Shown: positions 9,310 to 48,449, counted from the first letter of the stretch. The stretch is 64,000 nucleotides of DNA from a virus (IMGVR_UViG_3300032007_000002), one strand, 5' to 3'. The notes: a model not told the origin generated them from the letters alone. Numbers and translations are program-made.

Positions 9310-9369
9310 GTTAAAATTCCTTTTCTCCGGGAGGACCACTCCTCCCTTTGGTTTGAAATATAGCAAAAA

Positions 9370-9951
9370 CTATTTGACGGCCTCGATGGACACGATCGCC
9401 TCCTTGACGAACCGGTCCGCGTTCTTGTTTTCCAGGTAGTCCTTCACCATCGGCCGGAGGAGGTCCGGGTTGAAGTCGACGAGCCGGAGGATGAACGTGT
9501 TGAACTCCTGCTCGCTCATCTTCCCCCTCCGCCGCTTCTTGGTCGCCTCGTCCATGATGCGCCGGACCGCGTAGGACGGGTCCTTGACGTTCCCCGTCCA
9601 CCGGGAGACGTCCCCGAGCTTGATCGTCCCGAAGCGTCCCGTGTGGAACGCCTTCAGCTCCCCGAGCACGACCATGTCCCCGCCGATTAAGTATGTGCCG
9701 CCGGTGCCCGGCCCCATCGGCCGCAGGGCCGCGTTGAAGCAGAGGGCGGTACCGGTGCTCAGCACCTTCCCCTTGAGGTCCTTCCCGAACTGCTCCATGT
9801 CGGCCTCGTGGATCCGGTCAATTATGGCGTCGCGCTGTTCGTCCAGCTTCCGCATTTCGTCTTCCAGCAGGTTGGCCTCGCCGAGCATTTCGGCCCTGGC
9901 CTTCCTGTATTCCTCGTCGCCCGATACGGCGTAGTCAATCTCTTTCAGCAT
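9370..9951 (-). CDS. Hypothetical protein
   Basis: 193 aa, GGGAG RBS. Confidence 0.7.
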   Translation of the reverse strand: MLKEIDYAVSGDEEYRKARAEMLGEANLLEDEMRKLDEQRDAIIDRIHEADMEQFGKDLKGKVLSTGTALCFNAALRPMGPGTGGTYLIGGDMVVLGELKAFHTGRFGTIKLGDVSRWTGNVKDPSYAVRRIMDEATKKRRRGKMSEQEFNTFILRLVDFNPDLLRPMVKDYLENKNADRFVKEAIVSIEAVK

Positions 9952-9952
9952 G

Positions 9953-10195
9953 TCACAGCTCCCTTGTAGATGCGATACCGAACAGCTTCTTGTACAGATG
10001 CTGCCAGTCCAGACGCCCGGCGATGCCCGTCACCGGGTCCCCGTAGGTTATCCAGTCCACCTCGGACTTGTATATGGTCGTCCCGCCGAGCGTGATGTGG
10101 CTGTCCGTGTGCAGGACGGCGTCCGGGTTGACGAAGCGGGCCATCCGCCCGTCCCCCTTCCCGTCCTTGAACTTGATGAGTATGGTCTCGTTCAT
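9953..10195 (-). CDS. Hypothetical protein
   Basis: Start MNETILIK coupled to the upstream stop. Confidence 0.55.
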   Translation of the reverse strand: MNETILIKFKDGKGDGRMARFVNPDAVLHTDSHITLGGTTIYKSEVDWITYGDPVTGIAGRLDWQHLYKKLFGIASTREL

Positions 10196-11061
10196 CACTT
10201 CCCGCCCTTCCATCCCGGGAACCCGGCCATGTCGAATACGCGGGCCGTCGAGAAGTACGCCACCTCGTTGGCGCATGCCTTCCCCGTCTCCGGGTTCATC
10301 CATGAGTCGTTCCCGCGGTAGATGGACTCGCACGCCTTGGACGCGTTTCTGAACACCGTGAGGTAGGTCTCCCCTTCCGAGAGGTTCCTGCGGCTCTCCT
10401 CCGTGTTCGGGATGAAGAACGTGCTGAAGCTGCCCGGGTAGACTTCCCCTGTGGCTTCCGCGATGATGCCGTCCGCGCCCTTCTCCGCGAAGTGCTCCGC
10501 GAGCCTCTCCCCGTCCGCCCGGCATATACTCGCCGCGATCGCCTCGGAGAGGAGGGACTTCACCCCGTCCATCATCTCCTCCGCCGTCTTCCCGGCAGCG
10601 GCCAGACCCGAGAGCCGTGCGCAGATTGTCCCGGCGAACTCCCTGATGGCTTCCTTCGCCTTCTCCGGCTTGTCTATCCTGACGCTCCCGTCCGTGAGGC
10701 CCTTGAAGAAGTCCGACGCGAATGCGAGGATCTCCGGGGTCTCCTTCCCCTCGCTCGTCAGCCGCCTGTACTGGTCGAACATGTCCTTCGCGAAGTCCCG
10801 GACGGTGTCCTCCTTCGGCGTCTGCCCGTCCAGGTCCTCCAGCGCCCCGAGGAGGACTTCCCTGATGCAGTCCGGGCAGAGGTCCGGGTCCGGGGTGCTG
10901 CCCCCGTGCCAGATGTCCAGCGTGAACCTCACCTCGCAGTAGTTCGCCCTGCCCATCGCGTAGGGGAGTATCTTCGGCCACGAGTGCCTCACCTTGATGC
11001 GCTTCTCGAAGACCTTGCCGCACTTGTCGCAGCTGTATGTGGGATGGTTGATTGTCGCCAT
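10195..11061 (-). CDS. Hypothetical protein with N-terminal Zn-ribbon
   Basis: CDKC...CPDC pairs; AAGGA RBS. Confidence 0.7.
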   Translation of the reverse strand: MATINHPTYSCDKCGKVFEKRIKVRHSWPKILPYAMGRANYCEVRFTLDIWHGGSTPDPDLCPDCIREVLLGALEDLDGQTPKEDTVRDFAKDMFDQYRRLTSEGKETPEILAFASDFFKGLTDGSVRIDKPEKAKEAIREFAGTICARLSGLAAAGKTAEEMMDGVKSLLSEAIAASICRADGERLAEHFAEKGADGIIAEATGEVYPGSFSTFFIPNTEESRRNLSEGETYLTVFRNASKACESIYRGNDSWMNPETGKACANEVAYFSTARVFDMAGFPGWKGGK

Positions 11062-11091
11062 TGTACGTTTCCTTTTGTAAAAAATTTTTAA

Positions 11092-11829
11092 CTATGTCTC
11101 TTTGGTTGTCAGTTCGTTCCACCGCGTGACCAGCAGCTCGGGATAGCAGGCCTCCATGCCCTCGTACATCCCCACGCTGAACGCGTCGTTCACTTCAACC
11201 AGGGCGGTCTCCCCGGTCTCCAGCACCCCCACGTCCAGGCAGTATGCGCCCGGCGCCCCGGCCTCCCCGTAGTCCCTGGCCATCTGCCCGACTACGCCCA
11301 TGTCCACTTTGGCTCCCCGGTCCCCGTCATACCAGCAGCAGCCCCGGGCTTCCCCACGGATCACCGGGACCCGGTATTCCGACACCCAGCGCACCGGCTC
11401 CGAGCAGTAGATTTCCACGCTCCCGCCCACGGTCCCCAGCGGGGCCAGGTCGTCCATGGTGCCCACCATCCGCCCGGTGAAGCGCTTCACCCTGCGGAGG
11501 GGCTTGATGAACACCGGGGCTATCTCCCCGTCCTCCTCCACCTTCTCCCGGATGCGCTTCAGGCTGGACTGCCACACGTTCCGGTAGAGGTACTTGGAGA
11601 GGCTCGCCGGGTAGTCGTCGTGCCGGTAGTCGTACACCCCTAACTGTTTCAGCGCCGGTAGCGTCACCTGCAGTCCGCCCGCAACGAAGTCCCCGGGGAA
11701 AAGGATTATCCTCCGCTGCCGGATCTCCTTCGCGTGGAACGGGACGTAGTTCCCCTCGCCGAAGAACTCGGCAAGGCGGGCCTCCTCCCTGGCGAACGTC
11801 GAGTTGTCATTCACCTGGAGGTAGTTCAC
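11092..11829 (-). CDS. ATP-grasp domain protein (DUF4343-like)
   Basis: FIKP...KRFTG, SEPVRWVSEYRV and YCLDVG...LVEVNDAFSVGMY motifs; GTG start after GAGGAGG. Confidence 0.7.
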   Translation of the reverse strand: MNYLQVNDNSTFAREEARLAEFFGEGNYVPFHAKEIRQRRIILFPGDFVAGGLQVTLPALKQLGVYDYRHDDYPASLSKYLYRNVWQSSLKRIREKVEEDGEIAPVFIKPLRRVKRFTGRMVGTMDDLAPLGTVGGSVEIYCSEPVRWVSEYRVPVIRGEARGCCWYDGDRGAKVDMGVVGQMARDYGEAGAPGAYCLDVGVLETGETALVEVNDAFSVGMYEGMEACYPELLVTRWNELTTKET

Positions 11830-12131
11830 AGCATCCTCCTCTTGCCTTCCGCGACGCCCTTCATCCGTTCCACCTCCCGGTCCAGGTATTCCGACAGCCC
11901 GTTGATGGACCCGAACGCCGCCAGCGCCAGGACGCCCCCGAGGAGGTCCACCGACGCCATCATGTAGCCGACGCCCGCTCCCCCGCACATGTAGTACATC
12001 CCCGTCAGCCACGCCGACAGCTTCCTCCACCCACGCTTCCTCGCCCGCCTTCCCGGGGCGTAGAGCGCGAGCAGCGCACAGGTGTAGATGAACTCCGACA
12101 AAAGCATCGCCCCTATTCCAGGATCCCTCAT
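11826..12131 (-). CDS. Membrane protein
   Basis: Start MRDPGIG overlapping the upstream stop; several hydrophobic segments. Confidence 0.5.
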   Translation of the reverse strand: MRDPGIGAMLLSEFIYTCALLALYAPGRRARKRGWRKLSAWLTGMYYMCGGAGVGYMMASVDLLGGVLALAAFGSINGLSEYLDREVERMKGVAEGKRRML

Positions 12132-12490
12132 TCCAGTACCTCCTTCATTGCGCCGAAACCGGCATATACCCCGTATGGCCACGCCAGGGCCGCGCCGAGT
12201 GCCGGCCACAGGCCCCCCGCGTCGTACATGGACCCTATCCACGCCCCCTCCGCGCAGAAACCCGCGCAGATTGCAAGCAGCCCGGCCCAACCGTGTCCCC
12301 GGAAAGGACGCCTGCACAGCCACATCCCCCAGGAATACCAGAGGAACAGCAGGAGGACCGTGACCAGCACCGTGAGCCCGTTCACCCCGGAACAGTACGC
12401 CGGGGAAAGCGCCAGCACGTCCCCGATGCCGCAGGGGCACGACTCCACCGCCGACCCCGAACTGTATGCTACCGACTGTACCGACATCAT
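12128..12490 (-). CDS. Membrane protein
   Basis: Three hydrophobic segments; operon overlap. Confidence 0.5.
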   Translation of the reverse strand: MMSVQSVAYSSGSAVESCPCGIGDVLALSPAYCSGVNGLTVLVTVLLLFLWYSWGMWLCRRPFRGHGWAGLLAICAGFCAEGAWIGSMYDAGGLWPALGAALAWPYGVYAGFGAMKEVLE

Positions 12491-12921
12491 AACTCCCTCA
12501 CGGGGACGGCGCCCTTCCACCCGTCCGCCTTCAGCTTGCCGAGGGTGGCACAGAGGCCCTTCTCCCCCAGGTCGTCCACGTCGTTACTATTTGTCCCTAT
12601 CCCCGGGACGAGGCTGACCGGCATGCGGAGACCGTGCGCGTATGTGCTCACCTTCCCAGACCCGCAGTCGAGCCGGACGGTGAAGCTGTGGGGGAACAGG
12701 TTGCCGTGGATGACTGTCGCGTGGCGGTATTCCCTGCCGTCCTTGACGACGCTGGCTATCTGTATATCCGGGTAGTAGGCCCGGACGCATGTGGCAAACT
12801 GCTCTCCGTTCATATATTCACCTCCGTTCATATATCCATCCTTCTTCACCGCGGGATGGTTGCCGAGTCTCTCCCTCACCGCCCCTACCATGCGCTTGCT
12901 GTATTCCATCAGGTCCTTCAT
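12487..12921 (-). CDS. Hypothetical protein
   Basis: Start MKDLMEY overlapping the upstream stop (ATGA). Confidence 0.6.
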   Translation of the reverse strand: MKDLMEYSKRMVGAVRERLGNHPAVKKDGYMNGGEYMNGEQFATCVRAYYPDIQIASVVKDGREYRHATVIHGNLFPHSFTVRLDCGSGKVSTYAHGLRMPVSLVPGIGTNSNDVDDLGEKGLCATLGKLKADGWKGAVPVREL

Positions 12922-13313
12922 CCCTTCGCCTCCTCGTCGGAAAACCACGTGAAGCCCTCCCCGCGGAGGAACTGCTTCAAGTTCCATATAGTAGCCGAAC
13001 ACTTCCCCAGGCTGTCACGGGGGACCTGCCCCATGTACCTGTTGTACAGGGCCACCGCCTCCGAACCGCACGTATAGGTCCCGTCCTTCACCGCGACGAT
13101 CCCGCACTCCGTATTCTCCAGCTTCACCGCCGTCCACGGCTTCCTGACCCCCATGTCCGAACCGGCGGACGATACCACGGAGAGCATGGCAGTCCCCCAT
13201 CCACAGAAGTCAGTGCCCGCGTTCATCTCGGGGTCGAGACCCACGTCTATCCCGCTGAGGTAGGCGGTACCCTCCCGGGAGAAACGGTCGTACCAGTATG
13301 CTTGTGTGGCCAT
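12918..13313 (-). CDS. Hypothetical protein
   Basis: Start MATQAYW after AGGAG; class B motif at 13400. Confidence 0.6.
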   Translation of the reverse strand: MATQAYWYDRFSREGTAYLSGIDVGLDPEMNAGTDFCGWGTAMLSVVSSAGSDMGVRKPWTAVKLENTECGIVAVKDGTYTCGSEAVALYNRYMGQVPRDSLGKCSATIWNLKQFLRGEGFTWFSDEEAKG

Positions 13314-13349
13314 ATAGTATGCAGCTCCTGTTGCGTAGTGTAAGCGGAA

Positions 13350-14040
13350 TTTCAAAAAATTTCCCACGGCACCGGCAGGACGCCGACACCGGGCAGCACG
13401 AAATATAGCAAATATCTCCCCCGCAGGGACGGACAGCTTGCCGGGTACTTGCAGGGTGCTTGTCGGGTGGCTGCCGGGTGCGCGGGGAGGAAAATTGAAA
13501 AATTTCCGGCCGCCCGGCCCGCCAGGGCCGCGGCGGCCACCAAGTTCGGTCGCTGGCTCGGGACTCGGAAGATCGATCCCTGGCTCGGGACTCGCCTTGG
13601 ACCCCTCCAGATGGCGATTTTGAAGCGTAAAGGGCATGTTTGCCGGAGGCAAGGGGCGTTTTGAAGTCGGAAAAAGGCCGTTCTAGGATGGAAATAAAAA
13701 CGGAAAGTTAAATGTGCGCGTGTCCGTATGAGCACTTGTGCACTTCTGGACCACTGCACCCCCGTGCACCGGCACCCCGCTCCGCGGGACTGGCACTGCA
13801 CAACTGGGCACCCTCCGGGCCACGACTTCGCCAGCCCTCCGGGGGACGCCTTCGGGAGGTCTTCCCACGGTGTTGATAGGGCGTTGACAGTGTTGATACG
13901 GCTTCGGGGGTGTTGATAAGTCGTCGAGAAGGCGTTGAGAGGTCCGTGAGACGGATGTGAGACGGCCGTTGTACGGAGTTGACAGAGCAGTCTCGCGGAG
14001 CGCCGGTTGAGAAGGGTGTCCCGGAGGGGTGGGGCGGAGC
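13350..14040. other. Non-coding region, candidate replication origin (or genome terminus junction)
   Basis: Largest gene-free gap; G/C skew inverts here; phased GTTGA(T/C/G)A repeats 13870-14013; GCAC repeats 13730-13815; GGCTCGGGACTCG direct repeat near 13555 and 13582. Confidence 0.5.
13870..14013. repeat. Iteron-like G(T/C)GTTGA(T/C/G)A repeats with roughly 10-11 bp period
   Basis: GTGTTGATA at 13870, 13890, 13910; GCGTTGACA 13881; GCGTTGAGA 13932; GAGTTGACA 13976; degenerate copies between. Confidence 0.6.
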
Positions 14041-14240
14041 CCTATGTGACGTGGGGAGGGTGTGGGGAGGTTTCCCGTGATTCCGGCGGAGCCGGGAAGA
14101 CGTGGGAAGGGGTCCCCCATGTGACGGGGGATCGGTCGGGAGGGAGTTCCCGTGATTCCGACGGGGTTGTTGGGGTCGGATTTGGGGGAGGTTTACATGT
14201 GACGGGGGGAGGGTCGGGAAGGAGTTCCCGTGATTCCCCT
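14041..14240 (-). repeat. Three tandem class A elements with no RBS or ORF
   Basis: ATGTGAC...CCCGTGATTCC three times, with CCCGTGATTCC at 14074, 14149, 14227. Confidence 0.85.
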
Positions 14241-14244
14241 GCCC

Positions 14245-14469
14245 CTACTTCTTCTTGGACGGGGGGAGTTTGCAGAGGATGTCCATGACACCCTTGTAAG
14301 TCCGGTCGAGCTCCCTGGTCTTGAGGTCCAGGTTACGGCGGAGCCGGACGATGTATTCGGCGAGGTCCCTGGGTGTCTGTGTCTCGAGCTGGGCGAGGGA
14401 CATGGAGTCCATGTCGGGGCCGGTGAACTTCTGGGCGAGCCAGTTTCCTAGTTTCGTGAATCCTTCCAT
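14245..14469 (-). CDS. Hypothetical protein
   Basis: 74 aa, AAGGA RBS. Confidence 0.6.
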   Translation of the reverse strand: MEGFTKLGNWLAQKFTGPDMDSMSLAQLETQTPRDLAEYIVRLRRNLDLKTRELDRTYKGVMDILCKLPPSKKK

Positions 14470-14486
14470 AGGGTTCCTTTCATTTG

Positions 14487-14513
14487 AAAAGGGGCCCGGC
14501 GATGCCGGGCCCC
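14487..14513 (-). terminator. Intrinsic terminator
   Basis: GGGGCCCGGC-GAT-GCCGGGCCCC stem with U-tract on the minus strand. Confidence 0.75.
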
Positions 14514-14530
14514 GATAATGTAGAAACAGT

Positions 14531-14959
14531 TTAGGGATCTGTCAACAGCGGGGGTTCCTTGTGGAACTGCTTTATCGTGATCGGGGAGAAGCGTTCCCCC
14601 AGTCTGAGGGCTGCGCACTCCGTACAGAAGGGGAGGCGCCATCCGCCCCTGGTTTCGAGTTCGGGGGTCTTTCCGCATGAGCAGCAGTGGTCCCAGGAGT
14701 CCCTCCACGCTGCGAGGGCGAGTTCGGAGATTTCCGGTCGGAGGTGATCGGGGACGTTTCGGAGGTCGGGAACGAGAAGAAGCCGTCCGAGGTATTCACG
14801 GACGGCTGCGATCTTGGTTTCCGGGGAGATTTCCGCTGCCCTGGCGCAGAAGGAGTCGAACAGTTCCTTCCAGCCGTCGGGGACGTCGTCCCGGAACGAT
14901 TTCCCGTCGGGGCGGGCGGCTATCTCGGGATACGGAGTTTTGTTCCGCATTTGGGGCAC
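14531..14959 (-). CDS. Conserved-type phage protein with C-terminal CxxC...GW...CxxC
   Basis: DGWKELF...VREYLGRL...CCSCG...GGW...CTEC pattern; start uncertain. Confidence 0.6.
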   Translation of the reverse strand: MPQMRNKTPYPEIAARPDGKSFRDDVPDGWKELFDSFCARAAEISPETKIAAVREYLGRLLLVPDLRNVPDHLRPEISELALAAWRDSWDHCCSCGKTPELETRGGWRLPFCTECAALRLGERFSPITIKQFHKEPPLLTDP

Positions 14960-15129
14960 CGGAGGATGGTTTCCTTCAGTCGGGCGATTTCCTCGTCCTT
15001 GGCCTTCAGCTGTTCCTTGAGGGCCTGGACCTGCTGCTCTTTGGCGATGTCGGCGATGGTCGGCTTCTTGGGGCCGCCGAAGATGCCGTTGCCGCCGAAG
15101 ATGTCGTTGAAGTTGAACTGGTCTGGCAT
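14920..15129 (-). CDS. Small coiled-coil/Zn-ribbon protein
   Basis: Start MPDQFNF; CPKCG near the C-terminus. Confidence 0.55.
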   Translation of the reverse strand: MPDQFNFNDIFGGNGIFGGPKKPTIADIAKEQQVQALKEQLKAKDEEIARLKETILRCPKCGTKLRIPR

Positions 15130-15130
15130 T

Positions 15131-15592
15131 TTACTTCTTCCTGATGATTGCGACGCCGAGGATGGGGCCGTACTTTTCGAAGACGCCGGGAAACTGGGCG
15201 CGGAGGCGGTCGTATTCGGACGGCTGCTGCTGACGGGATTTCCAGCTGCGGATGAACTCTTCGATGGCGGGGATGAAGTCGCCGCAGTCGATGGCGGCCT
15301 TGGCACGTTCGGTGTTGAGGTCGAGGCCGAACATGCGCTTGAAGTTGCCTGCGAAGTCGCGGGAGAGTTCTTCTTCGGCCTTCTTGGGATCGGGCTGGGC
15401 CTGTTCGGGCTGTGCCTGTTCCTTGTGGTCGAGGTTCATCTGGTGGACCGCGGTGCGGAGGGTGTTGACTTCGGTTTCGAGGGCTTCGATCTGTTTAGCC
15501 TGCGCTGCGTTGGCGAGCTTGAGCGTCTCGTTCTCGCGGACGAGGGCGTCAATCTTGTCGAGCATCTGTTTCGTGATTTCGTTGTTTTCCAT
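15131..15592 (-). CDS. Coiled-coil hypothetical protein
   Basis: 153 aa, GAGGTG RBS. Confidence 0.7.
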   Translation of the reverse strand: MENNEITKQMLDKIDALVRENETLKLANAAQAKQIEALETEVNTLRTAVHQMNLDHKEQAQPEQAQPDPKKAEEELSRDFAGNFKRMFGLDLNTERAKAAIDCGDFIPAIEEFIRSWKSRQQQPSEYDRLRAQFPGVFEKYGPILGVAIIRKK

Positions 15593-15608
15593 AGGTACAC
15601 CTCAAAAG

Positions 15609-15872
15609 TTAAAAATTGTTTACGACATACCATGCGGTCTTGTAGCAGACGTAGATCCAGTTGAGCGCCGTGTGGACGATCGCCCAGGGCCACGAGTGGT
15701 TGAACACCCACGACATCGAGAAGGCTGCGAGGGCGCCTACCATCCCGGTGAAGAGGCATCCGCATGGGAACCGGATTGTAAATCCGGGTTTACGTTCCTG
15801 CTGTGAAATATAGCAATTTCGGGGGTCAGTCGGCTGGGTAGCCGTGTTCCCGGCAGATTCTCTGGACTGCAT
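15609..15872 (-). CDS. Small membrane protein (start uncertain)
   Basis: SWVFNHSWPWAIVH hydrophobic segment; a class B motif lies inside the 5' part, so the true start may be later. Confidence 0.45.
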   Translation of the reverse strand: MQSRESAGNTATQPTDPRNCYISQQERKPGFTIRFPCGCLFTGMVGALAAFSMSWVFNHSWPWAIVHTALNWIYVCYKTAWYVVNNF

Positions 15873-16026
15873 CCTTGATCTCCTGCGCCGTAGCGACGTC
15901 CATGTTGTGGATAGTGTTTAGGAAGCCGATCCCGATGTGGTCGACGGTGGTGAGTTCCACGCAGTCGTCACCGTCGCCGTATTTTTCGTTAGCGCGTTCG
16001 CGGAGTTCGCTTGCTGTATCGCACAT
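15826..16026 (-). CDS. Hypothetical protein
   Basis: 66 aa, AGGAGA RBS. Confidence 0.55.
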   Translation of the reverse strand: MCDTASELRERANEKYGDGDDCVELTTVDHIGIGFLNTIHNMDVATAQEIKDAVQRICREHGYPAD

Positions 16027-16068
16027 TGTAAAATTCTCCTGGTTTTTTTGGAAAAATTGAAAAAAAAT

Positions 16069-16266
16069 CTAGCGCCGGATTTCGGGTGGCGCCTTAAAAC
16101 TAGGTTTCTCGACCGTCACGCCGTCCTTCGGCGCCTTGAAATCTAGCAAAATTTCGTGGGAGGGCGCCTCGATGGCGGATTCCGCCACCATGGCGACGCC
16201 GAGGGTGAACAGGAAGATCAGCGCCGCTGCCATGGCGATGATGCTGATGGCTCTGGCTCCGCTCAT
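16069..16266 (-). CDS. Small membrane protein
   Basis: Start MSGARAIS overlapping the NADAR stop; one transmembrane segment. Confidence 0.5.
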   Translation of the reverse strand: MSGARAISIIAMAAALIFLFTLGVAMVAESAIEAPSHEILLDFKAPKDGVTVEKPSFKAPPEIRR

Positions 16267-16787
16267 TTTCCGTTCACCAGCTTGTAGGCGATGTCGTTCG
16301 CCACCCTCGTGAGGATGTTGCCGAGTTCGTTCTTGCCCTTCCACTTCGCCGGGTCGCCGATGTCGGGGTCGTCGAGGTTCATTCCGATTCCCCAGTAGGT
16401 GTCGGTCAGGGACGCTTCGACGAGGGTAATCCCGTCGGAGACGAGCATGACCAGCTTGTTGGCGAGGAAGACGTTGCCTTCGTACTTTTCCCGGACGGCG
16501 AGGCGCATCGTGGGGCTCTTGACCTTGTCCCAGGACTTCGCGTCGAAGTTCCTCACCCGGTTGCCGAGGAGGAGGCACGTCTGTGGGTCCTTGGTATGGA
16601 GGATGAGGTCGGCCATTTCCATGTCGCGGAAGTACCGGGCCTTGTCCAGCTGGTATGCCTGCTCGGATGTGTAGCATACCACGTCTTCCGGGGACGGGCC
16701 GAACGGGGTGTGGTGGACGAACTCGGACTGGTGGAAGTTGGCGACCCAGTCCTTGTAGAAGAAGGTGTACTTGCCGAGTGTTTTCAT
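16263..16787 (-). CDS. NADAR family (YbiA-like) protein
   Basis: NFH...SEQAYQLDKA..F.D, LGNRVRNFD...W, LVEASLTDTYWGIG and WKGKNELGNIL motifs. Confidence 0.85.
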   Translation of the reverse strand: MKTLGKYTFFYKDWVANFHQSEFVHHTPFGPSPEDVVCYTSEQAYQLDKARYFRDMEMADLILHTKDPQTCLLLGNRVRNFDAKSWDKVKSPTMRLAVREKYEGNVFLANKLVMLVSDGITLVEASLTDTYWGIGMNLDDPDIGDPAKWKGKNELGNILTRVANDIAYKLVNGK

Positions 16788-17278
16788 TTCTTGCATCCTT
16801 CCCTGATTTCTGTCCAGGGGAACTTGAGGCGGTAGTCTAGCTGCCGGAGGTAGTTGGGGAGCTGTCTGAGGGATTCCCCGGAGTGCTTGAGCGTCTGGTC
16901 GATGATGTGGCAGGGGGAGCCGTAGAAGTCCCTCATGTCGTGCCCGTCGTGGAAGTAGATGCCGCCGAGGACCTGGCCGCCGTAGACGAAGAGGACGTCC
17001 TTGCACTCGCGCATGTTGCCGAGGTCGATGGCGGGTTCCCCGTTGCGCTTGCGCTCGTACTGGCAGTGGAGGTAGGAATACTTCCCTGCGGAGAGGACGG
17101 GCTCGGCCTGGGATAGGCGCCACGTGGTGACGGAGGGGCAGTTGCCCTGGGCGTCGGCCGTGATTCCGATGTCGGTCCCGGCGTAGAGGCAGGCGGGGCC
17201 GTCGGGTACCCCGGGGAGGGATCCGGCGGCGAAGGCGATGGCCGCGAGGGCGAGGGCTAGGCATGTGACAGTGCGCAT
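16784..17278 (-). CDS. Secreted Cys-containing protein
   Basis: Signal peptide MRTVTCLALALAAIAFA; AAGGA RBS. Confidence 0.55.
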   Translation of the reverse strand: MRTVTCLALALAAIAFAAGSLPGVPDGPACLYAGTDIGITADAQGNCPSVTTWRLSQAEPVLSAGKYSYLHCQYERKRNGEPAIDLGNMRECKDVLFVYGGQVLGGIYFHDGHDMRDFYGSPCHIIDQTLKHSGESLRQLPNYLRQLDYRLKFPWTEIREGCKK

Positions 17279-17526
17279 CTGTACTTGTTCCTTATGTTGG
17301 AGATTGTCTTTTCCGGGGTGGCGCCTATGCAGTCCAGGTCGTCGGGGAGGATGTTGCGGTCGAGGAAGGAGACCATCTCCCTGGGGTTGGCGCACCGGAT
17401 CTCCGGTTCGAGCGTGACGAGGCCCTGCTGTACGGCGCTGTTGAGAAGCTGTGAATATCTTGTGGAATCGTCGTGGTTCCATTTGTCCAGGGATGCCTGG
17501 ACGAGGTCTGTGTAGGAAGTTGCCAT
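17257..17526 (-). CDS. Hypothetical protein
   Basis: Start MATSYTD directly after a TTTGTTATAT motif. Confidence 0.55.
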   Translation of the reverse strand: MATSYTDLVQASLDKWNHDDSTRYSQLLNSAVQQGLVTLEPEIRCANPREMVSFLDRNILPDDLDCIGATPEKTISNIRNKYRCALSHA

Positions 17527-17601
17527 ATATAACAAAATTTAAAAAATTGGCCGGACCGGCGGTGCCGGTCCGGTGCCGAGTTTGGAGCAAAATTGGGAAA
17601 A

Positions 17602-18342
17602 TTAAAGAATTTCTTCGGCGGTTTCCATGAGGACGGTGCGGTTGCGCATCTTGGTGACCACCGTCTTGGTGACCCTGCGGATGTAGGCGGTGGAGTTCCC
17701 GGTGCGGGATGCGTAGTCCGCGGCGGAGTTCCAGTCCGGGGAGAGCATGGCGTCGAAGAGCTGGCGTTCCGCGTCGTTTTCGAGGGCTGCGTCTGCCTGT
17801 TCCTTGAGGATGCTGCGGACGCGGTGGAGGTCGATGTCGTCGGCGATGTCGGACGCGTCGTCGTGGTTGAGGAGGATGTCCATGACCGGGGCGTTCGGGC
17901 GCTTTTCCTGTTCGGATCCGGGTGCGGCGAAGGCGACGGCGGTGACGGTCTCCCCTGCGCGGAGGCGGTTTTCCGGCCAGTGCACGAGGTTGTCGGCGAA
18001 GATGGCCTTGTTCAGCGCGTTGAAGATGCGGGCGTTGAAGAAGGTGATGAAGCGGGTGCCCTCTTTGAGGTCGAAGTCCTGGATTGCTGCCGGGAGGTGG
18101 AGCATGACTTCGGAGACGAGTTCGCCGTAGTCGCCCTTGAAGCGGCGGTAGCGCGGGTTGCTCGTCGCCACGCGGACGATGGTCGGGTAGCAGAGGCCGG
18201 CGATGAGGCGGAGGGCCTCGGAGGAACCCTGGCGGGCGAGGAGGATGTACTGGACTTCGGTGTCGCGGTTGGGGATGGCGGCCTTCGCGGCCTTGTATTC
18301 GCGGTCCATGTCTGCGAAGAATTTTGTGCTGAACAGTGACAT
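17602..18342 (-). CDS. Phage-encoded sigma-70 family RNA polymerase sigma factor
   Basis: Region 1.2/2-like EVQYILLARQGSSEALRLI...IVRVA...AIQDFDLKEGTRFITF...I...LNKAI...VHWP; C-terminal region 4-like HTH ADYASRTGNSTAYIRRV. Confidence 0.8.
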   Translation of the reverse strand: MSLFSTKFFADMDREYKAAKAAIPNRDTEVQYILLARQGSSEALRLIAGLCYPTIVRVATSNPRYRRFKGDYGELVSEVMLHLPAAIQDFDLKEGTRFITFFNARIFNALNKAIFADNLVHWPENRLRAGETVTAVAFAAPGSEQEKRPNAPVMDILLNHDDASDIADDIDLHRVRSILKEQADAALENDAERQLFDAMLSPDWNSAADYASRTGNSTAYIRRVTKTVVTKMRNRTVLMETAEEIL

Positions 18343-18401
18343 AGTTTTTTGCTCCGTGGCTACGATGTTGTCTTGGTTCGTATGGAAAAATAAAAAATTT
18401 T

Positions 18402-19862
18402 TTATGCGATGAGTTTGAGCGCCCTCGCCGCGGCCATGATTTCGGCCTCGTTACGGGTGTCCGCGAGGAGTTTCCCCGCGAGGCCGAGGTTCACCATGGC
18501 GGGGGCGTCCTTCGCCCAGGACGGGATGCCGTTGATGGTCGGCGCGAACGGCTCGGCGAAGTTCACGTCGAGGAAGTTCCCCGCGTCCTCGTAGTCCATG
18601 CGGTCGGCCTTCGCGGCCAGGGCGAGGATCGCTTCGAGTTCCCGGTCGGTGAGGAGGCACCCGTGGAGGCGGCGGAGGGACCCGTCGTTCCCCACGATCA
18701 TGTCGCCGTAGCCGAGGAGCTTCTCCGCCCCGCCGTAGCCGAGGATGGTCATGGAGTCCGTGGCCGATGCGACCTTGAACGCGATGCGGGTGGGGATGTT
18801 GCACTTGAGGTCGCCCGTCACCACCTTGGTCGAGGGGCGCTGGGTGGCGAGGACGAGGTGGATGCCGACGGCGCGGGCCTTCTGCGCGATGCGCATGACG
18901 AACGCGGTCAGCTCGGCGGAGGCGGTCATCATGAGGTCGGCGAACTCGTCAACCACCGCGACCACGTAGGGCATCTTCCTGCGCTGTCCTGCCGGAATTG
19001 TAAAAATTTTTTCACAGTTCTCGACGGCGGCGTTGAAGTCCTTGATGTTTCGGAAGCCGAGTTCCGCGAGGACGGAATAGCGGTATTCCATGAGGGAGAC
19101 GAGCCACCCGATCGAGAGCACGGCCTCCATGGGGTCCGTGATGGCCCTGCCGTTGATTACGTTGGGGAGGGCCTCGTAGGGTTTCAGTTCCACCTGCTTC
19201 GGGTCGATGAGGAGGAAGCGCACCATGTCCGTCGGCATGGAGAGATAGACCGAGGAAATGATGGAGTTGATGCAGACGGACTTGCCGGAGCCGGTCTGTC
19301 CCGCGACGAGCATGTGCGGCGCCTTGGCGAGGTCGATGCGGACGGGGTTGCCCACCGGGTCCACGCCGACGACCGCGGGGATTGCCATGTCTGCGCAGGG
19401 GGAGTTGAAGATGTTTCCGAACGGGACCACCTTGCGGTCCTTGACCGGGATGCTGATGGAGCAGCAGCGGGTCTTTTGGAGTCCGGTGTAGGGGTCGGTG
19501 GACGGGAAGTAGTCGTTGCCGTTCACCTCGATGGATGCGCAGTCGAGGTCCCTGGCGAGGTCCTTGGCGATCGCTTCGAGGGCGGAAGCCTTCGTGCCCG
19601 GCTTCAAGTGCATGAAGATCTTGGAGATGACCGGGCCGGACTGGGAACCCGCGACGGTGCAGGCCACTCCGTATGCGGAGCACACCTTTTCCACGCCACT
19701 CGCACGGGCATCCTGGCCCACGGTGAACGCGGTGGACGTGAAGGCGGGGGCCTTCGGCTTGCGTTCGGCGCGGCCGCGGTAGGAGAAGTAGTCAGCGAAC
19801 GGGGCCGCGACCGGGTTGGTTGCCACGCGGAGGAGTTCGACTGTCTTTTTGGAAATTGCCAT
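18402..19862 (-). CDS. ftsK: FtsK/SpoIIIE-family DNA translocase ATPase (motor domain only)
   Basis: DLAKAPHMLVAGQTGSGKS (Walker A), LIDPKQVEL, VVDEFADLM (Walker B), ARAVGIHLVLATQRPS, GAEKLLGYGDM; no N-terminal transmembrane domain and no obvious gamma domain. Confidence 0.9.
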   Translation of the reverse strand: MAISKKTVELLRVATNPVAAPFADYFSYRGRAERKPKAPAFTSTAFTVGQDARASGVEKVCSAYGVACTVAGSQSGPVISKIFMHLKPGTKASALEAIAKDLARDLDCASIEVNGNDYFPSTDPYTGLQKTRCCSISIPVKDRKVVPFGNIFNSPCADMAIPAVVGVDPVGNPVRIDLAKAPHMLVAGQTGSGKSVCINSIISSVYLSMPTDMVRFLLIDPKQVELKPYEALPNVINGRAITDPMEAVLSIGWLVSLMEYRYSVLAELGFRNIKDFNAAVENCEKIFTIPAGQRRKMPYVVAVVDEFADLMMTASAELTAFVMRIAQKARAVGIHLVLATQRPSTKVVTGDLKCNIPTRIAFKVASATDSMTILGYGGAEKLLGYGDMIVGNDGSLRRLHGCLLTDRELEAILALAAKADRMDYEDAGNFLDVNFAEPFAPTINGIPSWAKDAPAMVNLGLAGKLLADTRNEAEIMAAARALKLIA

Positions 19863-19892
19863 TGTTTCTTCCTTTTGGATGTTCGTGCTATG

Positions 19893-20534
19893 TTACTTGG
19901 AGGCGGCTTCCGCCATCTGTTCCCGTGATTCCGCCTGGTTGATCTTCTCGAACACGGAGGCGTATTCACCGCGGGAGACCACGACAGAGTCGCGGAGGCG
20001 GAACCCTACCAGGCGCCCGGCCTGGTCCATGTACTTCGCGACCTGGATGTCGGTGTCGGACGGGGTGGCGATGCCCTGCGGGTGGTTGTGGACGATGTAG
20101 AAGGACGAGGCGTCCACGGAGGAGAGGAAGCTCCATACTGTGTGGACGGGGACCCCGGTGCCGGAGGCGGTGCCGAGGGACACTTCGCGGATGGCGAGGA
20201 TCCTGCGGGCGCCGTCGAGGGCGATGATGTACTGCGACTCGATGTTGCGGTACTTGAGGCGGGCCATCACCGCGGCGACTTCCCTGGCTCCCGTGAGGCG
20301 GAGGCCGACCGGGTCCAGGAGGAAGGTGCCGGACATCCTGATGAGCGCACGCACGACTTCGAGCTCGGAACCGGAGAACACTTCGTCCGGCGGGACCGGG
20401 TTGCTGCCACGGAGGTAGCCGACTACGCGCGAGTAGAACGCGATGCCGTAGGGACGGCATAGCACTTCCACGGCGGAGAGGTCCGCGGCGTTGTCTTCTT
20501 CGAGGTTTCCCATGTACTGTGCGAGGTAGCTCAT
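19893..20534 (-). CDS. radC: RadC-like JAB domain protein
   Basis: ESQYIIALD...VSLGT...IVHNHPQGIATPSDTD...AGRLVGFRLRDSVVV (HxH...S..D JAB motif). Confidence 0.85.
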   Translation of the reverse strand: MSYLAQYMGNLEEDNAADLSAVEVLCRPYGIAFYSRVVGYLRGSNPVPPDEVFSGSELEVVRALIRMSGTFLLDPVGLRLTGAREVAAVMARLKYRNIESQYIIALDGARRILAIREVSLGTASGTGVPVHTVWSFLSSVDASSFYIVHNHPQGIATPSDTDIQVAKYMDQAGRLVGFRLRDSVVVSRGEYASVFEKINQAESREQMAEAASK

Positions 20535-24076: not shown

Positions 24077-24154
24077 GGTGTCTCCTTTTCTGATATTCCC
24101 CGTATATGACGGAGGGGACCCGTGAGGATCCCCTTCCCGTGATTCCGTTGATAG

Positions 24155-24226
24155 TACACCCGTCCGGACTCGAACCGGAATTATCGGCTTCGGGGGCCGA
24201 TGTGCTATCCATTGCACTACGGATGC
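24155..24226 (-). tRNA. tRNA-Arg(CCG)
   Basis: Cloverleaf GCATCCG...TGGATAGCAC-TCGGC-CCCCGAA-GCCGA...GGTTCGAGTCC-CGGGTGT-A; C at position 33; followed by CTA rather than CCA. Confidence 0.85.
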
Positions 24227-24233
24227 GTCAACC

Positions 24234-24506
24234 TTATTTGTCCCTGGACGGGCAGTATGCCGGGTGGACGGTGAGCCATTCGTACTCCGGGACCCTCTTC
24301 GCGAGAAGTGCCGGGTGGGCGACTGCGGCCTCCTTTCCGTCCTTGCTGCAGATTGAGGCGATTTTCACGTTCTTCAACTTGCGCAGCTGCATGAGTTCTG
24401 TGGCCTTGGCCTTGGCGCCTTCGACGGCGGACGCTTCCACCTGCCCGGCGCAGAGTCGGAGTTCCTTTCCTCCGATTACCGTAGTATAGTTCACGGTGAA
24501 GATCAT
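24234..24506 (-). CDS. Hypothetical protein
   Basis: Start MIFTVNY after AAGGAGA. Confidence 0.6.
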   Translation of the reverse strand: MIFTVNYTTVIGGKELRLCAGQVEASAVEGAKAKATELMQLRKLKNVKIASICSKDGKEAAVAHPALLAKRVPEYEWLTVHPAYCPSRDK

Positions 24507-24787
24507 AGGGGTCTCCTTAGTTTTTCGATTGATGTCTCGACCTGGGAGGCGACGCGTTCCAGCACGTCGGAGAGCTGGTTGTACTCGTCCGTGACGATGT
24601 ACCAGGTCTTGAAGGGGGTTTTCTCGTTTTCCCGGTAGAGTTCGATGGCGGGGAGTTCCACCTTGCCGTCGTTGCGATACCCTGCGATGAGTTTCACTCC
24701 GGGGCGGTAGAAGTCCATGTCCTCGTGGCCTTCGCGGAGGTCGGCGAGTGCTACCTTGATGTCTCGATAAAGGGTGTTGTCTGCCAT
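24503..24787 (-). CDS. Hypothetical protein
   Basis: 94 aa between tRNA genes. Confidence 0.6.
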   Translation of the reverse strand: MADNTLYRDIKVALADLREGHEDMDFYRPGVKLIAGYRNDGKVELPAIELYRENEKTPFKTWYIVTDEYNQLSDVLERVASQVETSIEKLRRPL

Positions 24788-24802
24788 ATATGTTGGGGGT
24801 AG

Positions 24803-24876
24803 TAGCGCATACCGGGGTCGAACCGGTGATTTTCGGAATGAGAATCCGCTGTCCTGGGCCTCTAGACGAATGCGCC
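24803..24876 (-). tRNA. tRNA-Glu(CTC)
   Basis: GGCGCAT-TCGTCTAGAGGCCCAGGAC-CGGA-TTCTCAT-TCCG...GGTTCGACCCC-ATGCGCT-A; followed by CTA. Confidence 0.85.
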
Positions 24877-25851
24877 GTGTTCAATAAAAGTTAAGAGTTT
24901 GTTAAATTCTGTTTGAACCTTTGTTTTGCTGGCCTTGCCCATGTCTTTAATGACGTATGGTGTGAAACCAGCTTTGGTGATTTCTGCGATTTTAATTCTG
25001 TCGCGGTTTTGGATGCAAGCCAATGAAGATTGTGTTGATATTTGCTTGTAGTGCCATGCGCCGTTCCATAATATAGCAATTTTCTGATCTAATAGGATGA
25101 TATCGGCATCCCAACCGTTAAAAAGTTGTAAATTGTTCTTTACATTGTTGAACCGGGTTTTGCATAACTCACAGAATGCGATTTCATTTTTGCTTCGGCG
25201 GTTGGTTGACTGTTGGGCAACACTTTTAAGGGCGGCAATGCGTAGCTTTTCCCTGGTTTGCTGGCTGAGGTTTGCGGCAACAATGGAATGAACGCAGGTT
25301 TTGCAGTAGCCAAGTTTTGAGCGTGGGTGTATTGGCTTTCCGCAATTTTTACATTGCCTCGTTGGACGAGGTAATTGTTTGCGTTTGTAGTGTTTTCTAC
25401 ACAGCCCGGTTTTATTGTCCTTACATAATGTCGCCCCGCATATATAGCAGTGTTTCAGTGGTTTGGGTGATTGAAAATTGTTCTTTCTTGCAAGTGTGCG
25501 GTATAAAGTGCTTGCTCGTTTTTTGTTAGACTCTTCTGTTGGTGTTCTGCGATTTGCACATGTCCTGGAACAGAAAAACTTTTCCTTTTTAGAAAACTCG
25601 CGCTCGGTACATGTTATGGTAAATGTTTTGCCGCAGTTTGCACAAGATACGATATACTCATGCCTGGGCAATGTGTTATTTTTGTTATACAGTGTGCATT
25701 TGCGCGAACCGCCCTTTTTAAGCGATTGGATAATTTCATCGTGCTTTGGGTTTTGGGGGCAAAGGCGGCAATGCGCATTGAACTTACCGCGGGTGGTAGT
25801 AAATACTTCTCCGCAATATTTACAGCTATATGTAGAAATTTGATTATTCAT
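24862..25851 (-). CDS. Free-standing putative homing endonuclease (CxxC Zn-ribbons plus Vsr/DUF559-like nuclease domain)
   Basis: Many CxxC pairs including FCSRTCAN; C-terminal SKNE...WDADIILLDQKIAILWNGAWHY...RDRIK...GFTPYVI; visibly AT-rich; inserted between tRNAs. Confidence 0.7.
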   Translation of the reverse strand: MNNQISTYSCKYCGEVFTTTRGKFNAHCRLCPQNPKHDEIIQSLKKGGSRKCTLYNKNNTLPRHEYIVSCANCGKTFTITCTEREFSKKEKFFCSRTCANRRTPTEESNKKRASTLYRTLARKNNFQSPKPLKHCYICGATLCKDNKTGLCRKHYKRKQLPRPTRQCKNCGKPIHPRSKLGYCKTCVHSIVAANLSQQTREKLRIAALKSVAQQSTNRRSKNEIAFCELCKTRFNNVKNNLQLFNGWDADIILLDQKIAILWNGAWHYKQISTQSSLACIQNRDRIKIAEITKAGFTPYVIKDMGKASKTKVQTEFNKLLTFIEHGAFV

Positions 25852-25863
25852 ACATATAGTTTA

Positions 25864-25939
25864 TAGCGGGAGCGGGACTCGAACCCGCAACAACTCACGG
25901 GTTATGGGCCCGGCGAGCTACCAGTTGCTCCATCCCGCG
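25864..25939 (-). tRNA. Initiator tRNA-fMet(CAT)
   Basis: Unpaired C1:U72, three consecutive G-C pairs in the anticodon stem, loop CCCATAA, TTCGA T-loop; no encoded CCA. Confidence 0.85.
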
Positions 25940-25983
25940 ATAAACTACATGGCGAACTATCGCTAACTGAAATATAGCAAAGT

Positions 25984-46932: not shown

Positions 46933-47937
46933 TTAGGCAATTTTTGCTAATAGCTTGCCCCAAAACCCTAAACGTGGTTTGGTTTCGTTCACCTCGGACT
47001 TTGATGGTTGCTGATATATTGCCGGAGCATCGGAGCATCGTTGGTCCACGTATTCATTATTAGGCGGGCGCGTTACCATTGATGCAGTATCATTAGGGTT
47101 AATATTAGTATTGGGGGTGGCATCAACTTTTACCGGGGTTATTTTCAATGGTTCAGTAAATGCTACGCCAAAATCTTTCATTTCGTTACGCCGTTTGGCC
47201 ATACGGGAGGCAGCTTCTGCATCTCGTCGAGCAATGAAATCAAGTTCGGTTATTGCCGGATAGTTCCAATTACCCCACCCAACATAGTTTTCGAGACCAG
47301 TTGCCCAATATTCGGCAGAGCTAATTTTATTGCCGTTTGGGTCAAAAAACTCAGTATTGTTGTGCCCAGGACGTTCAATTTTGCCAATTACCCCGGAAAG
47401 GTAAAAATGGGTCGATTTAATGAAAATGCCATCTTCGTTGGACACATATTGAACAGTAGGAATTCCGTTGTCAAGCCGATACTCAGTATTGATAATTGTT
47501 CCGTTAGCGTTTTTAACAATGGTTCTACTAGGGGTTCCGTTTTTGTGGTATTCATGCAAATCGGTGTTATCAAGTTTTCCATTGTGAAACAGTTTTTTTG
47601 CTGCTATTACACCATTGGGATGATAAATAATCTCAATGCCATCCTTTTTCCCATTTGCGTAAGCGGTCTCCGATTTCTTCACGCCATTCTCGAACAGAAC
47701 ACAGGTACCTTCTTTTTTGCCATTGAAGTACGGGATTTTACTTACTATTTGTCCCTTATAGAAAGTTTCTTCGTATATTCGCGTATTGTTTTCATACGTG
47801 GTAATTTTTGCCGGGTTGCCATCGGGGTCATAGCATGTTTGTAAGCCATGTTTTTTCCCATCAACATATTCAGTTTCTTTAATTATTTTACCTTGCGGCC
47901 CGAGTTCTTGAATTAGCCCGTTTTTCTTAGTTGCCAT
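46933..47937 (-). CDS. MORN-variant repeat protein (YwqK antitoxin-like), low GC
   Basis: Repeats YVDGKKHG, YFNGKKEG, YANGKKDG, FHNGKLD with Y.xNG spacing. Confidence 0.75.
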   Translation of the reverse strand: MATKKNGLIQELGPQGKIIKETEYVDGKKHGLQTCYDPDGNPAKITTYENNTRIYEETFYKGQIVSKIPYFNGKKEGTCVLFENGVKKSETAYANGKKDGIEIIYHPNGVIAAKKLFHNGKLDNTDLHEYHKNGTPSRTIVKNANGTIINTEYRLDNGIPTVQYVSNEDGIFIKSTHFYLSGVIGKIERPGHNNTEFFDPNGNKISSAEYWATGLENYVGWGNWNYPAITELDFIARRDAEAASRMAKRRNEMKDFGVAFTEPLKITPVKVDATPNTNINPNDTASMVTRPPNNEYVDQRCSDAPAIYQQPSKSEVNETKPRLGFWGKLLAKIA

Positions 47938-47951
47938 CTTGTATCTCCTGG

Positions 47952-48449
47952 TTAATTGCAATAATACGGATCGTTTACTCGTTTTATTACATTGATTCCA
48001 TTAGCATCGTAACACATTATATCTGTGGAGCCATAATTAGGTCGTGACCATTTTAATGTTCCGTCAGTTCGATAGCCATTTAGATCAGTAAATTTTACTC
48101 CGCTTCTCCAAAATTGGGTTCGCTCCGTTACAGAGCAGTCTATTGTTATAACATAGCAGGTTTCTATTCCACCATCTGGTTCATATTGATAAACATGCTC
48201 AATGTCGGATATTGAACATGAAACAGAATGGTATTCATAAAACGAATCATCTTTCCACGCATCACGATAAATTCCTAGTCCAACCGCCATTACAGTCCCA
48301 TTGGAAAATACATCCTGGTTTGAAATGTGTGTATAGGTTCCTGTTTTGTGCGGCGCGTGTAATATTGGAAAATTATCATTCCAATAATCACATTTTCCGG
48401 CAAACCCTATTCCTATTGCGCATAATGTTATAATAATGATACGTTTCAT
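47952..48449 (-). CDS. Secreted Cys-containing protein, low GC (class A cassette)
   Basis: Signal peptide MKRIIIITLCAIGIGFA after element and RBS. Confidence 0.65.
   Translation of the reverse strand: MKRIIIITLCAIGIGFAGKCDYWNDNFPILHAPHKTGTYTHISNQDVFSNGTVMAVGLGIYRDAWKDDSFYEYHSVSCSISDIEHVYQYEPDGGIETCYVITIDCSVTERTQFWRSGVKFTDLNGYRTDGTLKWSRPNYGSTDIMCYDANGINVIKRVNDPYYCN

What the first reader, a model, noticed from the sequence alone, without database searches (positions are those of the whole stretch)
9370..17500. Sharp G/C skew inversion at about 13.4-13.9 kb with no change in coding strand: candidate replication origin
Seen: genes on both sides are minus-strand, yet the + strand is C-rich on the left (12001-12060: 32 C, 13 G) and G-rich on the right (14161-14220: 32 G, 5 C; coding 17161-17220: 28 G, 16 C). 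These are single hand-counted lines, not a full profile. The switch lies in the largest non-coding gap. Established: a C-to-G skew switch on the + strand marks bidirectional origins. Alternative: the junction of the genome termini in a circularised assembly.
Basis: partly seen in the sequence, partly recalled or inferred. Interest (0 to 1): 0.7.

Follow-up and report, generated by a model that had tools for sequence, protein, structure and literature searches.

The report
Edge of giant phage terminal repeat
In a 432-kb cattle-rumen phage the G/C strand bias flips at a conserved gene-free gap where sequencing depth doubles, so the spot is most likely one end of a roughly 62-kb duplicated genome end where DNA copying starts locally, not an ordinary whole-genome replication origin.

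Summary
The skew switch is real (changepoint 13.2-13.85 kb, in the largest non-coding gap, 13,314-14,244, minus-strand genes on both sides). But the C-rich side is only about 4 kb long, so it is not a replichore-scale origin. It is no chimera: 12 independent assemblies span it. Contig depth is about twice as high right of the gap in three independent samples. An array of early-type promoter cassettes starts exactly there and ends at a second gap near 76 kb. Best reading: the left edge of a ~62-kb direct terminal repeat of an uncultured rumen jumbo phage, as in XacN1 and PA5oct; the far edge was not tested by depth. The bias is positional: a 424-kb sister species has the same gap and C-rich arm over unrelated genes, and strain polymorphisms flip strand polarity here, also in non-coding DNA. 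That polarity is what divergent DNA synthesis from the gap would leave, with a 4-5 kb reach to the left. Priming by the three gene-less promoters, or a role in duplicating the repeat, is inference. The scan proposed a long terminal repeat on another jumbo phage before (e1-5335461), without depth data.

The parts
13314..14244 (.). Gene-free gap holding the skew switch; inferred left edge of the terminal repeat (exact end not mapped)
   Evidence: Largest gap; spanned by all relatives with frame-breaking 1, 10 and 11 bp indels; same ~915-bp gap in sister species L088; depth step bracketed to 12.3-15.8 kb
13515..13850 (.). Conserved non-coding core
   Evidence: 7.7% polymorphic sites against 36% at fourfold sites, p=1e-27; no Rfam family above chance; RNA fold z=-1.9, not significant
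13555..13594 (.). Pair of 13-bp direct repeats, 27 bp apart; candidate protein-binding sites
   Evidence: Only two copies in the window; kept in sister species, 81% over 54 bp
13664..13805 (.). AT-rich patch (32 of 50) followed by a GCAC-rich tract; candidate unwinding and recognition element
   Evidence: Nearly invariant among strains; 13,709-13,777 is 75% identical in sister species; function inferred
13870..13918 (.). Three 9-bp repeats at 20-bp period, inside an imperfect inverted repeat (13,778-13,804 / 13,977-14,003)
   Evidence: variable among strains and absent in the sister species, so probably not essential
14040..14237 (-). Three tandem early-type (P1) promoter elements with no ribosome site or gene, pointing into the gap
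   Evidence: not matched by the pattern that includes the ribosome site; 3-4 copies also in the sister species; promoter activity inferred
13401..13411 (-). Second promoter-like motif (P2) heading the C-rich operon
   Evidence: 9 copies, all one orientation, upstream of genes; conserved in relatives
9370..13313 (-). C-rich arm: 8-gene operon (includes an R2K ATP-grasp gene, 11,092-11,829) with G-ending codons and reversed polymorphism polarity
9356..9366 (-). Next P2 motif; the C-rich arm ends here
   Evidence: Step fitted at 9,393
14245..19862 (-). G-rich side: conserved gene run (74-aa gene, NADAR 16,263-16,787, sigma-like 17,602-18,342, FtsK-like 18,402-19,862)
   Evidence: same order in sister species at 36-90% protein identity
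14040..64000 (-). P1 cassette array of small genes, the inferred terminal repeat; continues past the window to 75,882 and a second gap at about 75.9-76.25 kb
   Evidence: 61 copies in the window, none left of 14,040 or on the other strand; extension; double depth shown to 56.6 kb

Best explanation
The gap is the left edge of a long (~62 kb) direct terminal repeat of a ~432-kb rumen jumbo phage. The repeat carries the early-type cassette genes and is collapsed to one copy in the assembly. One virion end lies in or near the gap, while the other copy is joined to the C-rich operon by real DNA. DNA synthesis starts at this junction and diverges from it, exposing the minus strand for 4-5 kb to the left and the plus strand to the right, which leaves the local skew. 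SHOWN: local skew, positional conservation, polymorphism flip, depth step, array boundaries. INFERRED: that the double-depth region ends at the second gap (repeat reading alone about 0.72); that the asymmetry comes from local initiation (about 0.55); that the three gene-less promoters prime it through an R-loop and that it serves to duplicate the repeat in concatemers (about 0.3 each).
For: Depth left vs right: X2 8.1-8.4 vs 17.2-18.9; X3 8.4-9.1 vs 17.3; X4 35-39 vs 61-74; X1 18.9 for a 40-kb contig mostly left of the gap vs 30.9-31.9. Three samples from three studies; mixing estimates put the step at 12.0-15.8 kb. Depth is flat from 23 to 56.6 kb. The same twofold signal revealed the XacN1 repeat (PMC5852040). 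P1 cassettes occur only between the two gaps. Sister species L088 has the same dipole over genes with no match to ours. G>T:C>A among strains is 26:59 in the arm, 141:35 to the right (p=1e-14) and 43:14 further left; it holds in every strain covering the arm and in non-coding DNA, 1:13 vs 35:11, p=5e-6.
Against: Depths are contig means, not read pile-ups; no read starts were available and no depth was obtained beyond the second gap. X1 and X2 may be the source sample. Much of the polymorphism polarity follows the coding strand: plus-strand genes give 25:38 and 10:11, so only the excess near the gap is positional, and the reach of the right arm is uncertain (4.6 kb by polymorphism, tens of kb by composition). 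The arm's ATA and AGG codon enrichment is not predicted by a G/T bias, and its left edge coincides with an operon end. No initiator or terminase gene lies nearby, and the two gaps share only short motifs.
Confidence: 0.58

Rival explanations
1. A pac-type packaging start or a unidirectional replication origin: depth jumps at the gap and declines gradually round the genome, with no fixed second end.
For: It also gives a one-sided depth step. Earlier scan notes describe T4-like genes, and T4 packages by headful (own knowledge). About 30% of huge phages show unidirectional skew (PMC7162821).
Against: The ratio is close to 2 in three unrelated samples and depth is flat over 34 kb. The promoter array has a second sharp boundary with a conserved gap, also in distant relatives. 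Skew is about 0 over -9 to +9 kb rather than uniform.
Confidence: 0.15
2. The gap is a terminal-repeat edge, but the skew comes from something other than initiation: persistent R-loops or transcription-linked damage over the operon driven by the three tandem promoters, or 3'-to-5' trimming on both sides of the terminase cut.
For: The arm ends at the next promoter (9,393 vs 9,356-9,366) and near one in L088. Polarity partly follows the coding strand. Trimming of 3' ends would expose the same strands as divergent forks (reasoning).
Against: Other promoter-driven minus-strand genes show the opposite polarity. The excess is of similar size and opposite sign on both sides of the gap.
Confidence: 0.17
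3. A classical bidirectional origin with two long replichores.
For: Correct sign of the switch; repeats and an AT-rich patch; bidirectional skew is known in huge phages (PMC7162821).
Against: The C-rich arm ends after 4.3 kb (4.6 kb in L088); the strand component is about +0.05 further left. Depth is a step, not a symmetric peak. No DnaA boxes.
Confidence: 0.06
4. An assembly chimera, or a foreign or inverted gene island that keeps old codon usage.
For: Distinct codon style in the arm (GGG, GAG, AGG, ATA) and variable gene content.
Against: 12 independent assemblies are collinear; no flanking long inverted repeats; unrelated genes at the same position in L088 carry the same bias; current polymorphisms and non-coding DNA flip too.
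Confidence: 0.04

Closest known systems
Xanthomonas jumbo phage XacN1, 65,875-bp direct terminal repeat (PMC5852040)
   Same: Similar length; recognised by a twofold depth step in a collapsed assembly; many small genes and tRNAs inside the repeat.
   Different: XacN1 ends were confirmed by long reads and gel sizing; here only one edge has depth support. That paper does not mention skew. Relatedness to this phage was not tested.
Pseudomonas jumbo phage PA5oct, 39,080-bp repeat (PMC7318152); SPO1 13,185 bp and CBB 22,456 bp (as cited in PMC5852040)
   Same: The repeat holds early host-takeover genes.
   Different: Early expression is measured there and only inferred here from the promoter-like cassettes.
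T4 origins ori(uvsY) and ori(34); T7 right-end promoter and repeat duplication; T5 injection-stop region (own knowledge, not checked in papers)
   Same: Promoters firing into a non-coding stretch; repeats at the inner edge of a terminal repeat.
   Different: No sequence similarity tested; T7 repeats are 160 bp; a strand bias limited to 4-5 kb is not known to me from these systems.
Bidirectional GC-skew origins of bacteria and huge phages (10.1101/808410; PMC7162821)
   Same: C-to-G sign change at a repeat-containing gap.
   Different: Those have long replichores; here the left arm is about 1% of the genome.
PeSL regulatory cassettes of T4-type phages (PMC2839356, PMC4122927; abstracts only)
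   Same: A repeated promoter cassette heading small variable genes, with gains and losses between strains.
   Different: Different sequence; here the array spans 62 kb and coincides with the double-depth region.

Membership tests
Long direct terminal repeat (XacN1/PA5oct/SPO1 type) | About twofold depth over a contiguous region starting at a sharp edge | tested here: met
   three samples; step at 12.0-15.8 kb by contig means
Long direct terminal repeat (XacN1/PA5oct/SPO1 type) | Depth halves again at a second fixed edge | not tested
Long direct terminal repeat (XacN1/PA5oct/SPO1 type) | Fixed molecule ends shown by read starts or long reads | not testable with these tools
   Only contigs were offered; no pile-up listed (table 6)
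Long direct terminal repeat (XacN1/PA5oct/SPO1 type) | Region carries early-expressed small genes | tested here: inconclusive
   Promoter-like cassettes confined to the region; timing of expression not measured
Bidirectional replichore origin | C-to-G skew switch independent of coding strand | tested here: met
Bidirectional replichore origin | Opposite skew sustained over long arms to a distant terminus | tested here: not met
   Left arm ends at 9.39 kb; near zero out to -9.3 kb; the rest of the genome was not available
Bidirectional replichore origin | Symmetric depth peak at the site | tested here: not met
   One-sided step
T4-type R-loop origin | Promoter directly upstream of an unwinding element | tested here: inconclusive
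   Three gene-less promoter-like elements point at an AT-rich patch 330-370 bp away; activity untested
T4-type R-loop origin | Persistent RNA-DNA hybrid that primes DNA synthesis | not testable with these tools
   Needs infected cells
Assembly chimera | Join absent from independent assemblies | tested here: not met
   Present in 12 assemblies and a sister species

The most novel reading that the evidence does not exclude
The 4-5 kb strand-bias footprint records a dedicated round of DNA synthesis, primed by gene-less early promoters at the repeat edge, that regenerates a ~62-kb terminal repeat from concatemers. Its leftward arm stops after a few kb. Such local skew dipoles could then locate repeat edges and their duplication origins in other jumbo phages from sequence alone.
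Probability: 0.22. Interest if true: 0.78.

Novelty: new variant of a known kind. Interest (0 to 1): 0.5.

Why it matters
Long terminal repeats vanish in metagenome assemblies, so this phage's packaged DNA is probably about 495 kb rather than 432 kb, with a repeat close to the 66-kb XacN1 record of 2018. It also warns that a skew minimum in a huge phage can mark a genome end rather than a replichore origin. How repeats of tens of kb are duplicated during packaging is, to my knowledge, unresolved; a conserved 340-bp core with a measurable mutational footprint gives a defined place to test it. The phage is uncultured and its host unknown, which limits near-term experiments.

Tried and rejected
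No whole genome was held, and handle searches failed, so genome-wide skew could not be drawn. Viral and species-genome collections held no relative; L001 was an unrelated chance match. Contig ends at 9.50 kb (L002, L003) first suggested an end there; X1 runs through it and X2 breaks there at low depth, so rejected. Contig ends at 77.6 and 79.6 kb are not used as evidence for the right edge, because a repeat array lies there. A protein-coding frame in the gap is rejected by frameshifting indels. A structured RNA is unsupported. Reading G>T polarity as fork direction everywhere was dropped once plus-strand genes showed that the baseline follows the coding strand. An exponential decay of the left arm fits worse than a step here, though L088 looks more gradual. 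The host was not identified; a resemblance to Fibrobacter is from memory and untested. The SPO1 genome paper was not held, and searches for papers on repeat duplication found nothing useful.

Full report
Source. The window's proteins occur on 432,572- and 432,464-bp contigs, with relatives of 431-436 kb. Holder runs are mostly bovine gut metagenomes. Offsets in earlier notes place the window at the end of the 432,572-bp contig; neighbouring contigs extend it to -9.3 kb and 77.6 kb. It is an uncultured jumbo phage; the host was not identified.

Observation. The three hand counts are exact. Skew is -0.157 over 9,370-13,313 and +0.155 over 14,245-17,500, with a changepoint at 13,426 and a flat cumulative floor from 13.25 to 13.85 kb. 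All genes there are on the minus strand and the 931-bp gap is the largest in the window. At fourfold-degenerate sites the eight genes left of the gap prefer G (+0.20 on the coding strand) while nearly all other minus-strand genes prefer C; permutation p=5e-5. The C-rich side ends in a step at about 9.39 kb, beside the next P2 promoter motif. Comparing plus- and minus-strand genes further left gives a strand component of only about +0.05. The minimum is therefore local.

Not a chimera, not a gene island. Ten relatives at 94-98% identity, plus two near 90%, are collinear through the gap and show the same skew minimum. A sister species (L088, 424,647 bp, about 72% nucleotide identity) keeps the gene order on the right and a ~915-bp gap, but has genes on the left with no match to ours. 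These are again G-ending for about 5 kb and then revert. Strain polymorphisms also change polarity: G>T to C>A is 26:59 in the arm, 141:35 to the right and 43:14 further left, in each strain separately and in non-coding DNA, where the change falls near 13.8 kb. One caveat matters. Plus-strand genes show the reverse or no polarity, so the baseline follows the coding strand. After allowing for that, what remains is a dipole of similar size and opposite sign over roughly 4.5 kb on each side; composition suggests a longer tail to the right.

Anatomy of the gap. From left to right: a P2 promoter motif (13,401), a pair of 13-bp direct repeats, an AT-rich patch, a GCAC-rich tract, three 9-bp repeats at 20-bp period within an imperfect inverted repeat, and three P1 promoter elements without ribosome site or gene, pointing left. 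The core 13,515-13,850 is far more conserved than fourfold sites. The direct repeats, the GCAC tract and the gene-less P1 elements survive in the sister species; the 9-bp repeats do not. There is no conserved reading frame, no Rfam match and no DnaA box.

Depth. In three samples from three studies, contigs right of the gap are about twice as deep as those to the left: 8.1-8.4 vs 17.2-18.9, 8.4-9.1 vs 17.3, 35-39 vs 61-74. Contigs that straddle the gap have intermediate means that place the step at 12.0-15.8 kb. Contigs located by their loose ends show double depth out to 56.6 kb. P1 cassettes occur only from 14,040 to 75,882, all in one orientation, and stop at a second gap that is conserved in distant relatives. 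This matches how the 65,875-bp repeat of XacN1 was found (PMC5852040) and the early-gene content of the PA5oct repeat (PMC7318152). The repeat would be about 62 kb and the virion DNA about 495 kb. No depth was obtained beyond 76 kb, so a pac site or a unidirectional origin is not excluded.

Mechanism. A fork moving left exposes the minus strand and one moving right the plus strand; by the deamination model (10.1101/808410) this gives C-rich left and G-rich right, as seen. 5'-to-3' resection from a cut would give the opposite sign; 3'-to-5' trimming would give the same. I take local initiation at the repeat edge as most likely (about 0.55). The gene-less promoters are candidates for RNA priming as in T4 origins, and the synthesis may duplicate the repeat in concatemers as proposed for T7 (own knowledge; about 0.3 each). 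Why the left arm stops at an operon end, and why it is rich in ATA and AGG codons, is unexplained.

Verdict. A real, conserved feature. Long terminal repeats are a known kind; the short positional strand-bias footprint at the edge is the new aspect. Interest 0.5.

Noticed in passing
L077:1-950 (about 76.7-77.6 kb in extended window numbering): CRISPR-like array just beyond the second gap: at least 14 units of a 36-bp repeat with about 30-bp unique spacers; absent at this place in relative L043.
   Followed up: no
window 24,154-25,940: Three tRNAs (Arg CCG, Glu CTC, Met CAT). Their codons CGG and GAG, and ATA if the CAT tRNA is lysidine-modified, are those enriched in the C-rich operon. May be coincidence.
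   Followed up: no
window 14,040-63,665: 61 promoter-plus-ribosome-site cassettes heading small genes; strains gain and lose genes between cassettes, as with PeSL cassettes of T4-type phages.
   Followed up: partly
window 16,263-20,534: NADAR, sigma-factor-like (weak), FtsK-like and RadC genes next to the gap, in the same order in the sister species; a DNA translocase near an inferred genome end may be relevant.
   Followed up: no
L042, L052, L057 (JAEEGK010000007.1, 473 kb); L048, L060, L084 (LXOW01209552.1): More distant relatives with the same promoter cassette and a homologous second gap; the LXOW contig ends about 200 bp after it.
   Followed up: partly
L009, L079, L081, L083: IS605/TnpB-family insertions at several different positions in relatives.
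   Followed up: no
window 24,862-25,851 and 46,933-48,449: Low-GC genes (third-position GC 0.27-0.44) inside the array, probably recent imports.
   Followed up: no
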